Virus record (IMG/VR): IMGVR_UViG_3300028991_000057
Location: 1-6,146 of that record
Length of the DNA: 6,146 bases
Origin: a virus
Lineage: Duplodnaviria > Heunggongvirae > Uroviricota > Caudoviricetes
Strand: one strand, 5' to 3'
In this document: piece by piece, positions 5,221-5,449 of the stretch
Position numbering within the stretch: position 1 is the stretch's first letter
Layout of the letters: every line of letters begins with the position of its first letter
Program-made: the position numbers and the translations under genes
The notes under the pieces: generated by a model
Databases searched by the model: none
Told to the model about the DNA's origin: nothing
What the model saw: the letters and a program-made list of their open reading frames with translations, nothing else

Positions 5221-5449
5221 CTTCACCTGTTCACCTTTTGATATTTTATCTTTTAATTCATAATGTTAAGGGGTGAACAGTTTCACAAAAACTATTCACC
5301 AACTGTTCACCACTGTTCACCCTTGAAGCTCAATAAACAATCAAAAAGGTGAACAGTGAATAGTTTGGTGAACAGTTCATAAATAACTGTTCACCCTATA
5401 ATATACTGATATAAAAGATATTTATGACAGGGTGAACAGTGGTGAACAG
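5221..5449. repeat. iteron array (crr/ori-like): nine perfect copies of CTGTTCACC in both orientations plus degenerate copies
   Basis: TGTTCACC at 5228, 5304, 5314 and 5388; GGTGAACA at 5272, 5348, 5367, 5431 and 5441. Degenerate copies at 5221 (cttcacc) and 5293 (tattcacc). The region is AT-rich and non-coding, immediately downstream of the primase gene. The octamer matches the type I iteron of satellite phage P4 as I recall it. Confidence 0.8.

What the first reader, a model, noticed from the sequence alone, without database searches (positions are those of the whole stretch)
5221..5449. P4-type iteron array immediately downstream of the primase gene
Nine perfect CTGTTCACC/GGTGAACAG repeats in mixed orientation within about 230 bp of AT-rich non-coding DNA, matching the P4 type I iteron and the P4 arrangement in which crr lies next to the 3' end of the alpha gene. 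The array also overlaps the probable promoter region of the downstream operon (81-aa, 101-aa, ssb, PerC-like), suggesting coupling between replication-protein binding and transcription. A second iteron cluster (an ori1 equivalent) would be expected elsewhere in the element.
Basis: partly seen in the sequence, partly recalled or inferred. Interest (0 to 1): 0.5.

Follow-up and report, generated by a model that had tools for sequence, protein, structure and literature searches.

The report
Replication origin of a phage satellite
This is most likely the replication origin of an E. coli phage-parasitic island (PICI): twelve binding sites for the island's own initiator protein, with the same 8-base sequence that satellite phage P4 uses, so it is a further example of a kind of origin described in 2018.

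Summary
There are nine perfect CTGTTCACC copies (0.06 expected by chance) in a 67% A+T gap between two genes. Three degenerate copies sit where relatives have good ones, giving 12 sites at 5220-5448.

The octamer is the annotated P4 "type 1 repeat". The gene beside it ends in a domain 56% identical to the origin-binding winged helix of P4 alpha (PDB 1KA8).

- **The element is not P4.** Its gene order matches EcCICFT073, a Gram-negative PICI. That island's origin lies in the same gap, has the same site layout with a different octamer, and was tested experimentally.
- **The array is not crr-like.** It is two inverted copies of the six-site P4 ori unit, with the same site order and spacing.
- **There is no second cluster.** None turned up in about 165 related loci, most with 10 kb of flank on each side.

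In relatives the octamer changes (TCTCCACC, TGTCTACC, TGTCCGCC) together with the wing hairpin of the binding domain. The layout stays fixed, which argues for cognate initiator binding.

The proposed promoter coupling is unsupported; only weak matches exist.

Side findings: an IHF-like motif at a fixed place in the A+T spacer, and full-length relatives of the "primase" that lack P4's primase domain.

Verdict: a new member of a known kind, of modest interest.

The parts
5463..6146 (-). 3' end of the initiator gene ('pri-rep', annotated as DNA primase family protein). It covers the end of the SF3 helicase region plus the C-terminal DNA-binding domain. The ORF runs off the window.
   Evidence: Translation. 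56% identity to P4 alpha residues 554-771. Pfam Pox_D5, plus weak DUF5906 and PPV_E1_C hits.
5502..5792 (-). Winged-helix origin-binding domain of the initiator.
   Evidence: Residues 119-215 match PDB 1KA8, the P4 origin-binding domain, at E=1.6e-25.
5535..5576 (-). Predicted wing hairpin (YMKRKTKHGLRSNV). This is the segment that changes together with the iteron sequence in relatives.
   Evidence: OBD alignment grouped by iteron class. Strands at 102-104 and 107-109 in a low-confidence AF2 model. E. coli relatives H55-H58 lose similarity to the window exactly at 5573-5575, and one of them, L176, has different iterons.
5220..5448 (.). The whole 12-site iteron array, with approximate dyad symmetry about position 5334.
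   Evidence: (inverted repeat I1).
5348..5448 (-). Half nearest the initiator gene. Sites: 5441-5448, 5431-5438, 5388-5395 (inverted), 5367-5374, 5355-5362 (degenerate), 5348-5355. Read in the sense of the initiator gene the pattern is ++[AT]-+++.
   Evidence: Spacings 10, 43, 21 and 19 (the last spans the degenerate site), against 10, 43, 22, 11, 10 in P4 ori read in the alpha sense. Alignment A3.
5220..5321 (+). Half farthest from the initiator gene, a mirror image of the other. Sites: 5220-5227 (degenerate), 5228-5235, 5272-5279 (inverted), 5293-5300 (1 mismatch), 5304-5311, 5314-5321.
   Evidence: Aligns with P4 ori with all six sites in register, 65.9% identity. Relatives have good sites at the degenerate positions.
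5396..5430 (.). A+T-rich spacer (80% A+T) of the half nearest the initiator gene, lying between inverted iterons. Candidate bending and/or melting site.
   Evidence: A 43-bp start-to-start distance is conserved across iteron classes.
5399..5411 (-). TATCAGTATATTA, a perfect match to the IHF consensus WATCARNNNNTTR at a conserved offset within the spacer.
   Evidence: At the same offset, 23 of 51 distinct spacers from relatives match perfectly, against 1% of shuffles. The consensus itself is from my own knowledge. IHF binding was not tested.
5236..5271 (.). A+T-rich spacer (83% A+T) of the half farthest from the initiator gene. It carries a weaker copy of the same motif at 5256-5268 (+), ATTCATAATGTTA, matching 7 of 9 consensus positions.
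   Evidence: The 7-of-9 count is read directly from the sequence.
5322..5347 (.). Central spacer between the two triplets, containing the dyad centre. 73% A+T.
5186..5219 (-). Conserved stretch beyond the last iteron, upstream of the 81-aa ORF. It includes a weak promoter-like pair: -35 TGAACA (5228-5233, inside an iteron) and -10 AAAAAT (5204-5209).
   Evidence: Conserved in diverged relatives. 8-of-12 match in a relaxed scan. The stricter scan found nothing.
4930..5175 (-). 81-aa ORF, first gene after the origin, function unknown. Its 5' end travels with the initiator-plus-origin cassette.
   Evidence: no Pfam hit. Many E. coli matches to the rest of the window stop at about 5091-5115.
4208..4618 (-). 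Single-strand DNA-binding protein gene, a probable accessory of the replication module.
   Evidence: Pfam SSB, E=2e-16.

Best explanation
The array is the single replication origin of an EcCICFT073-type phage-inducible chromosomal island.

**Proposed mechanism**
1. After the helper phage induces the island, the island's initiator is made. It is a relative of P4 alpha with an SF3 helicase and a C-terminal winged-helix domain.
2. The winged-helix domain binds the 12 TGTTCACC sites. These form two mirror-image copies of the six-site unit found in P4 ori. Each unit is a doublet, a 35-bp A+T-rich spacer, one inverted site, then a triplet.
3. Binding, possibly helped by IHF bending each spacer, distorts and opens the A+T-rich DNA.
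4. The helicase part assembles on the opened strands. The island's SSB and the host polymerase then copy the excised circle.
5. The mirror symmetry would suit loading two helicases in opposite directions.

**What is shown**
- The sites exist and are non-random.
- They are identical to the P4 type-1 repeats.
- A homologue of the P4 origin-binding domain is encoded next to them.
- The layout is conserved, and the octamer changes together with the wing of the binding domain.
- The position is equivalent to an experimentally tested PICI origin.

**What is inferred**
Binding, melting site, helicase loading, IHF involvement and bidirectionality.
For: 1. **Real repeats.** 9 perfect copies against 0.06 expected. 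Among 42 distinct close relatives, iteron columns vary less than spacer columns: 27/72 against 84/149, Fisher p=0.01; diversity 0.025 against 0.053.
2. **Same octamer as P4.** It matches the annotated P4 type-1 repeats. BLAST of the region hits P4 ori.
3. **Cognate binding domain next door.** 56% identity to P4 alpha; PDB 1KA8 at E=1.6e-25.
4. **Conserved layout.** The spacing pattern +[10]+[43]-[21]+[11]+[8]+ followed by its mirror image holds from E. coli to Klebsiella, Pectobacterium, Yersinia, Serratia and Xenorhabdus. It holds even where the octamer has become TCTCCACC, TGTCTACC or TGTCCGCC.
5. **Covariation.** Each octamer class has its own wing-hairpin sequence or insertion, while the helix before it stays the same. 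Within E. coli, similarity breaks at the wing, and there both the wing and the iterons differ in L176.
6. **Equivalent to a tested origin.** EcCICFT073 has the same gene order. Its array (TGTCTACC, same layout) sits in the same gap. [quoted passage not shown]
7. **Only one cluster per element**.
8. **Linked inheritance.** Initiator gene and array are exchanged together between islands that share the same capsid gene.
Against: - No experiment exists for this particular array or octamer class in a PICI. Binding of P4 alpha to TGTTCACC is from the P4 literature, recalled rather than read here.
- The covariation sample is phylogenetically structured, with roughly four or five independent switches. 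EcCICFT073 reaches TGTCTACC with a different wing, so there is no simple code.
- The structure model of the binding domain is poor (pLDDT 52). Placing the variable segment in the wing rests on the canonical winged-helix order.
- Full-length relatives of the initiator lack P4's Zn-ribbon and Toprim primase domain, so who makes the primers is unknown.
- The melting site is not identified. The two spacers and the centre are all candidates.
- In the published test, deleting the EcCICFT073 ori reduced colony numbers rather than being reported as abolishing them.
Confidence: 0.8

Rival explanations
1. The array is a crr-type element, required in cis, that only assists a separate origin (an ori1 equivalent) lying elsewhere in the element, as in P4.
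For: - It lies beside the 3' end of the alpha-like gene, as P4 crr does.
- The central sites (5304-5395) follow the same order as one crr unit, ++ spacer ---+.
Against: - No second cluster exists in relatives, even allowing one mismatch. Of the 88 loci other than P4 scanned, 85 have one cluster; the exceptions are two chance groups with no perfect copy and two adjacent islands. None of 80 diverse loci has two.
- The halves align with P4 ori with all six sites in register, and only the ++[AT]- core aligns with crr. Identity is 61-66% against 47-58%.
- crr is a direct 120-bp duplication; this array is an inverted one.
- In EcCICFT073 the initiator gene plus the adjacent region was enough for plasmid replication.
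Confidence: 0.07
2. The repeats are mainly operators. The initiator, or another island regulator, binds them to control a promoter for the downstream operon (81-aa, 101-aa, ssb, perC). Replication would be secondary or absent.
For: - The array ends 45 bp upstream of the 81-aa ORF.
- There is no terminator between the initiator gene and the array.
- A weak promoter-like pair has its -35 inside the iteron at 5228-5235, the last perfect one before the 81-aa ORF.
- A stretch beyond the last iteron is conserved in diverged relatives.
Against: - The consensus scan found no sigma-70 promoter (0 found; 2.1 expected in shuffles). The best relaxed matches score 8 of 12.
- Gram-negative PICIs are described as transcribed in one direction. 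[quoted passage not shown]
- Twelve sites in the P4-ori layout with two A+T spacers is more than an operator needs.
- The equivalent region of EcCICFT073 acts as an origin.
- A secondary regulatory role is not excluded.
Confidence: 0.08
3. The array is chiefly a copy-number, incompatibility or pairing (handcuffing) site, or a decaying relic of a P4-like origin that no longer fires.
For: - Iteron arrays in plasmids often serve in copy control (general knowledge).
- Three of the twelve sites are degenerate in this window.
Against: - Nine sites are perfect.
- The module occurs in 750 of 5426 complete E. coli genomes, with conserved iterons.
- The degenerate positions are also weak in some relatives that keep intact genes.
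- PICIs are not maintained as plasmids (PMC6092414).
Confidence: 0.03

Closest known systems
Origin of EcCICFT073 and other Gram-negative PICIs (Fillol-Salom et al. 2018, PMC6092414)
   Same: - It lies immediately 3' of the pri-rep gene.
- The island gene order is the same: int, alpA, DUF4222, initiator, ori, small ORF, ssb, perC, capsid E, decoration D, 137-aa, then a Nu1-type small-terminase gene here, where the CFT073 record has only a hypothetical protein.
- Sets of iterons flank A+T-rich DNA.
- The site order and spacing are the same.
   Different: - The octamer here is TGTTCACC; in EcCICFT073 it is TGTCTACC.
- The EcCICFT073 binding domain is much more diverged.
- This array itself has not been tested.
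Phage P4 ori (ori1), the type-1 repeat set
   Same: - Identical octamer.
- Six sites with the same orientation order and nearly the same spacing as each half of the array.
- The initiator's binding domain is 56% identical.
   Different: - Here there are two copies in inverted orientation, placed directly after the initiator gene. P4 has one copy 4.5 kb from crr, plus type-2 repeats.
- P4 needs crr as well (own knowledge; Flensburg and Calendar 1987).
- P4 alpha carries a Zn-ribbon and Toprim primase domain that full-length relatives of this initiator lack.
Phage P4 crr
   Same: - Lies next to the 3' end of the initiator gene.
- Same octamer.
- Shares the core of a doublet, a 35-bp A+T spacer and an inverted site.
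   Different: - crr is two direct 120-bp repeats with a different site order (++[AT]---+), many of them degenerate, placed after a terminator.
- It works only together with a distant ori.
- Here the halves are inverted, and no partner cluster exists in relatives.
SaPI and other Gram-positive PICI origins
   Same: The origin lies 3' of the rep gene. Iterons flank an A+T-rich region, and initiator and origin are matched in specificity (PMC6092414; own knowledge of Ubeda et al.).
   Different: The iteron sequences and initiator lineage are unrelated. The comparison is by layout only.
Iteron plasmid origins with an IHF site (pSC101, R6K gamma)
   Same: It may work alike: initiator sites plus an IHF-bent A+T-rich segment that helps opening (own knowledge; reviews listed).
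   Different: - The initiators are unrelated (Rep/pi against an SF3 helicase with a winged helix).
- Those origins depend on DnaA and DnaB. No DnaA box occurs in this window.
- IHF binding here is only a consensus match.

Membership tests
Gram-negative PICI origin (Fillol-Salom 2018) | Lies immediately 3' of the pri-rep (initiator) gene. | tested here: met
   The array starts 14 bp after the stop codon (5463-5465; first site 5441-5448).
Gram-negative PICI origin (Fillol-Salom 2018) | Sets of iterons flanking A+T-rich DNA. | tested here: met
   12 sites. Spacers are 80-83% A+T.
Gram-negative PICI origin (Fillol-Salom 2018) | Sits in a PICI: int and alpA upstream, genes in one direction, packaging and capsid genes downstream, size about 10-15 kb. 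| tested here: met
   The window holds the initiator 3' end, ssb, perC, capsid E, decoration D and a Nu1-like gene, all on one strand. Relatives add int and alpA and have the EcCICFT073 order. The 5' part of this very element is outside the window.
Gram-negative PICI origin (Fillol-Salom 2018) | Initiator plus origin drive autonomous replication. | not testable with these tools
   Shown for EcCICFT073 only, which has a different octamer.
P4-type origin (type-1 iterons bound by alpha) | Octamer TGTTCACC repeated in both orientations. | tested here: met
P4-type origin (type-1 iterons bound by alpha) | Initiator with the alpha-type C-terminal winged-helix origin-binding domain. | tested here: met
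   56% identity to alpha; PDB 1KA8 at E=1.6e-25.
P4-type origin (type-1 iterons bound by alpha) | Two-part organisation: ori and crr kilobases apart. | tested here: not met
   One cluster per element in relatives. P4 itself gives two clusters under the same test.
P4-type origin (type-1 iterons bound by alpha) | Initiator carries the Zn-ribbon and Toprim primase domain. | tested here: not met
   The full-length 605-aa relative aligns only with alpha residues 290-776 and has no such Pfam hit. The N-terminus of this window's own gene lies outside the window.
P4 crr | Two direct repeats of about 120 bp, each with type-1 sites in the order ++[AT]---+. | tested here: not met
   The array is an inverted duplication (I1). 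Its halves match the ori pattern ++[AT]-+++.
P4 crr | Lies just downstream of the initiator gene. | tested here: met
   Unlike in P4, no terminator lies in between.
IHF-assisted origin | A functional IHF site within the origin. | tested here: inconclusive
   Perfect consensus match at 5399-5411. The offset is conserved in relatives: 23 of 51 spacers perfect, against 1% of shuffles. Many of these spacers are related, P4 ori matches only 7 of 9, and no binding data exist.

The most novel reading that the evidence does not exclude
The PICI origin is a compact, self-sufficient version of the split P4 origin. Two inverted P4-ori units, each bent by host IHF at a conserved site in its A+T spacer, replace the ori-plus-crr pair.

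P4 alpha and this PICI's initiator keep the same wing hairpin and the same octamer despite only 56% identity. The two unrelated satellite types could therefore fire, titrate or block each other's origins when they share a cell.

The wing hairpin would then be a swappable specificity cassette that sets compatibility groups among satellites.
Probability: 0.2. Interest if true: 0.5.

Novelty: new member of a known kind. Interest (0 to 1): 0.25.

Why it matters
The practical value is modest. The 12-site layout gives a precise template for annotating PICI origins. The initiator-plus-array module occurs in 750 of 5426 complete E. coli genomes.

The pairing of wing hairpin with octamer predicts which initiator fires which origin. 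That is useful for engineered PICI or P4 delivery vectors, and for predicting compatibility between satellites.

The shared octamer with P4 makes cross-talk between two satellite families testable. It does not open a long-standing question.

Tried and rejected
- **Second cluster.** I scanned 89 close and 80 diverse loci for clusters, allowing one mismatch. None was found. The one double case (L044) is two adjacent islands, each with its own initiator gene end.
- **Promoter and terminator.** The consensus scan of 4900-5700 found nothing. The relaxed scan gave only 8-of-12 matches.
- **DnaA boxes.** None in the window. P4 has a perfect one beside crr.
- **Known RNA families.** No Rfam hit in the window.
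- **A Cnr-like regulator.** The DUF4222 gene just upstream of the initiator in relatives has no similarity to P4 ORF106.
- **Structure of the binding domain.** The AF2 model from a 15-sequence alignment was poor (pLDDT 52), so I ran no fold search.
- **Exact source of the window.** Not found among the fetched loci. The best match is 98.4% over 3530-6146 (L009) and about 93% for the rest, so the window is a mosaic. The exact capsid protein occurs alongside other replication modules.
- **Literature on IHF at P4 or PICI origins.** Nothing in the held library. The classic P4 papers (Ziegelin 1993/1995, Flensburg and Calendar 1987, Yeo 2002) are not held, so those points are from memory.
- **First CFT073 fetch.** It hit the icd prophage rather than the island.

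Full report
**1. The observation**

The pattern CTGTTCACC occurs nine times in the 6146-base window. All copies lie between 5227 and 5449, in the orientations + - + + - - + - -. Chance would give 0.06 copies, and none of 200 shuffles reached nine.

Allowing one mismatch adds one copy inside the array, TATTCACC at 5293-5300. Alignment with diverged relatives shows two further degenerate copies, CCTTCACC at 5220-5227 and AGTGAATA at 5355-5362. They sit exactly where relatives carry good sites. The array therefore has twelve positions at 5220-5448.

All genes of the window are on the minus strand. The array fills the gap between the stop codon of an ORF that runs off the window (5463-6146) and the start of an 81-aa ORF (5175). 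The gap is 67% A+T against 51-52% in the flanking genes.

**2. What the neighbours are**

The last 227 residues of the upstream protein are 56% identical to residues 554-771 of P4 alpha. Residues 119-215 match the solved P4 origin-binding domain, PDB 1KA8, at E=1.6e-25. That domain is a winged helix (PMC2777425).

Downstream on the same strand lie:
- two small ORFs without family hits
- an SSB gene and a PerC-family gene
- a lambda-E-type capsid gene and a lambda-D-type decoration gene
- a 137-aa ORF
- a 184-aa ORF that relatives annotate as a small terminase of the Nu1 type

Complete relatives in E. coli add an integrase, AlpA and a DUF4222 gene upstream, and are about 10-11 kb long.

This is the gene order of EcCICFT073, the model Gram-negative phage-inducible chromosomal island. 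I located it in the CFT073 chromosome at L171 15931-26655. The element is therefore a PICI, not a P4-like satellite. The initiator-plus-array module (window 5150-6146) is found in 750 of 5426 complete E. coli genomes.

**3. Relation to P4**

The P4 GenBank record annotates the octamer TGTTCACC as 'ori type 1 repeat'. It does so both in ori (six copies, 9310-9413) and in crr (two direct 120-bp repeats, 4291-4590, just after the alpha gene and its terminator).

The internal structure, however, is that of ori. Read in the sense of the initiator gene, the window shows + [10] + [43] - [21] + [19] + | - [10] - [11] - [21] + [44] -. The [19] step spans one degenerate site, and a further degenerate site follows the last one. 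P4 ori read in the sense of alpha shows + [10] + [43] - [22] + [11] + [10] +.

Each half of the array aligns with P4 ori with all six sites in register. The crr units share only the core of a doublet, a 35-bp A+T spacer and one inverted site. Identity of the halves is 61-66% to ori and 47-58% to crr. A BLAST of the region against phage records also hits P4 ori, not crr.

The two halves are mirror images about position 5334 (inverted repeat I1). The array is thus an inverted duplication of a P4-ori-like unit.

**4. Is there a second cluster?**

- *Close relatives.* One search scanned 89 loci, one of which is P4 itself. Of the other 88, 85 have exactly one cluster even with one mismatch allowed. 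Two have a chance group with no perfect copy.
- *The one double case.* L044 has two arrays because it holds two adjacent islands, each with its own initiator gene end.
- *Diverse relatives.* Among 80 loci from other Enterobacterales, 65 have one cluster and none has two. Fifteen fall below my threshold because their sites are degenerate.
- *Control.* P4 scores two clusters under the same test.

In this family the array next to the initiator gene is the only one. The exact source element of the window was not among the fetched loci, so this rests on relatives.

**5. Comparative evidence for function**

*Conservation.* Within 42 distinct close variants of the array, iteron columns vary less than spacer columns: 27 of 72 against 84 of 149, p=0.01. 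In more distant arrays the iterons stand out as conserved islands while the spacers drift yet stay A+T-rich.

*Octamer classes.* In relatives whose binding domain is 60-80% identical, the most frequent 8-mers downstream of the gene fall into classes:

| Octamer | Where found |
|---|---|
| TGTTCACC | E. coli, Klebsiella, Citrobacter, Pectobacterium, Pantoea, Xenorhabdus, Photorhabdus, P4 |
| TCTCCACC | Erwinia, Rahnella, Yersinia, some Serratia |
| TGTCTACC | Escherichia ruysiae, Kluyvera, Enterobacter, Lelliottia |
| TGTCCGCC or TGTCCACC | other Serratia |

The twelve-site layout and its spacings persist across these classes.

*Covariation with the protein.* The classes track one segment of the protein, the hairpin that follows the third helix:

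| Octamer | Hairpin segment |
|---|---|
| TGTTCACC | K[RK]xTKxG[ILM][RQ][ST]N (including P4, at only 56% identity) |
| TCTCCACC | RKKSTKG-NMRSN |
| TGTCTACC | five-residue insertion GPDKGR |
| TGTCCGCC | KKKATRGRIQSN |

The helix before the hairpin is unchanged among the PICI-type relatives. In winged-helix proteins the third helix and the wing make the DNA contacts (PMC2777425). My model of the domain is of low confidence but does place two short strands there.

*A breakpoint within E. coli.* A group of initiator genes (H55-H58) stays 83% identical to the window down to 5573-5575, the first codons of this hairpin, and then diverges. One of them, L176, has the GPDKGR wing and TGTCTACC iterons.

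Such co-change of protein segment and site, with the layout held fixed, is what cognate binding predicts. Two caveats apply. The number of independent switches is small. EcCICFT073 recognises TGTCTACC-type sites with a different hairpin, so there is no one-to-one code.

**6. Comparison with what is published**

Fillol-Salom et al. [quoted passage not shown] They also showed that the EcCICFT073 pri-rep-ori segment supports replication of a temperature-sensitive plasmid, and that deleting rep or ori impaired it (PMC6092414). A later paper repeats that the origin lies downstream of pri (PMC10111431).

I read the EcCICFT073 gap (L171 21997-22284). It carries TGTCTACC iterons in the same order and spacing as the window. 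The finding is therefore a member of a described kind of origin.

I did not find three points stated in the papers I could read:
- the octamer of this widespread subgroup is identical to the P4 type-1 repeat
- each half reproduces the P4 ori unit
- the pairing of wing and octamer

**7. Mechanism**

Shown: sites, layout, cognate domain, covariation, and positional equivalence to a tested origin.

Inferred from the P4 literature, which I recall rather than read here (Ziegelin et al. 1993 and 1995; Diaz-Orejas et al. 1994): the initiator binds the octamers through its C-terminal domain, opens nearby A+T-rich DNA, and acts as a 3'-5' hexameric helicase. SSB, gyrase and DNA polymerase III complete the reaction without DnaA, DnaB or DnaG. 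No DnaA box occurs in the window, and the island brings its own SSB.

The mirror symmetry suggests two helicase loading sites facing opposite ways.

One gap remains. The full-length 605-aa protein of relatives aligns only with alpha residues 290-776. It has no Zn-ribbon or Toprim domain, and its first 110-160 residues match no Pfam or NCBIfam family. How primers are made is therefore unknown, and 'primase' may be a misnomer.

**8. The A+T spacers are not just A+T-rich**

Across all octamer classes, and in P4 ori and crr, the spacer keeps a motif at a fixed distance from the inverted iteron. The consensus is ATAWCAWNNNNTTA.

In the window it reads TATCAGTATATTA (5399-5411, minus strand). That is a perfect match to the IHF consensus WATCARNNNNTTR, which I cite from my own knowledge. 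At the same offset, 23 of 51 distinct spacers from the initiator-gene side of relatives' arrays match perfectly, against 1% of shuffled spacers. Most others match 7 or 8 of 9 positions.

Many of these spacers are related to one another. P4 ori matches only 7 of 9, and the spacer on the far side of the window's array also only 7 of 9. This is a lead, not a result. If IHF binds, it would fold the doublet onto the inverted site and triplet, as in some iteron plasmids.

**9. Promoter coupling**

The consensus scan of 4900-5700 found no sigma-70 promoter and no terminator. A relaxed scan finds 8-of-12 matches. One has its -35 (TGAACA, 5228-5233) inside an iteron and its -10 at 5204-5209. The stretch beyond the last iteron is conserved in diverged relatives.

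Gram-negative PICIs are described as transcribed in one direction. [quoted passage not shown] Read-through from the initiator gene is therefore the simplest reading. A weak internal promoter occluded by initiator binding cannot be excluded.

**10. Verdict**

The octamer and the binding domain are P4-type. The element is a PICI, the array is built like ori rather than crr, and it is the only cluster.
- It is a new member of a known kind of origin.
- Interest is modest. It rises somewhat if the shared specificity with P4, the wing cassette or the IHF site prove functional.

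Noticed in passing
L004:7896-9713 (full-length relative of the window's gene at 5463-6146): The 605-aa 'DNA primase family protein' aligns only with P4 alpha residues 290-776 (helicase plus binding domain). It lacks the Zn-ribbon and Toprim primase domain. Its first 110-160 residues hit no Pfam or NCBIfam family.
   Followed up: partly
window 5399-5411 (-) and 5256-5268 (+): An IHF-consensus-like motif sits at a fixed offset inside the A+T spacers. It is conserved across iteron classes and present more weakly in P4 ori and crr.
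   Followed up: partly
window about 5091-5115; loci L172-L175: The exact capsid protein of the window occurs in other islands with unrelated replication modules: a 465-aa AAA_25 protein, or the CFT073-type initiator. Many E. coli matches to the window stop at about 5091-5115. Initiator plus origin plus the start of the 81-aa ORF therefore move as one cassette.
   Followed up: partly
window 5573-5575; L176: A group of E. coli initiator genes (H55-H58) is 83% identical to the window up to the first codons of the wing hairpin and unrelated after it. One of them, L176, has a five-residue wing insertion and TGTCTACC iterons. Its array is rearranged and cut by an IS3 element.
   Followed up: partly
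L009 (CP037943.1), 7896-18231: The same initiator, origin, 81-aa, 101-aa, SSB and PerC module sits in a capsid-forming PICI with an HK97-type capsid, protease, portal, HNH and both terminase subunits. The window is 98.4% identical to it over 3530-6146 but has the capsid-E/decoration-D/Nu1 module instead.
   Followed up: no
L002 (LR881103.1, 'Escherichia phage vB_KppS-Ant'): This 16.5-kb record, deposited as a phage from an induced prophage, has the make-up of a capsid-forming satellite: integrase, primase, capsid, portal, terminase and a tape-measure gene. It carries the same type of array after its primase gene.
   Followed up: no
window 5186-5219: The stretch between the last iteron and the 81-aa ORF is conserved in relatives whose spacers have diverged (CTTAAACGTATATTTTTTAATTTTA). 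It could be a weak promoter -10 region or a further part of the origin.
   Followed up: partly
L001 (P4) 4281-4289: A perfect DnaA box, TTATCCACA, lies directly beside P4 crr. It is not annotated in the record, and the window has no DnaA box.
   Followed up: no
L044 256-551 and 5845-6140: This IMG/VR contig holds two adjacent PICIs, each with its own initiator gene end and array (93% identical).
   Followed up: yes
window 3925-4317 (-) and 4208-4618 (-): The PerC-family ORF, as listed from its first GTG (130 aa), overlaps the end of the SSB gene by 110 bases. Relatives annotate a 90-aa product starting just after ssb, so the real start is probably internal.
   Followed up: no
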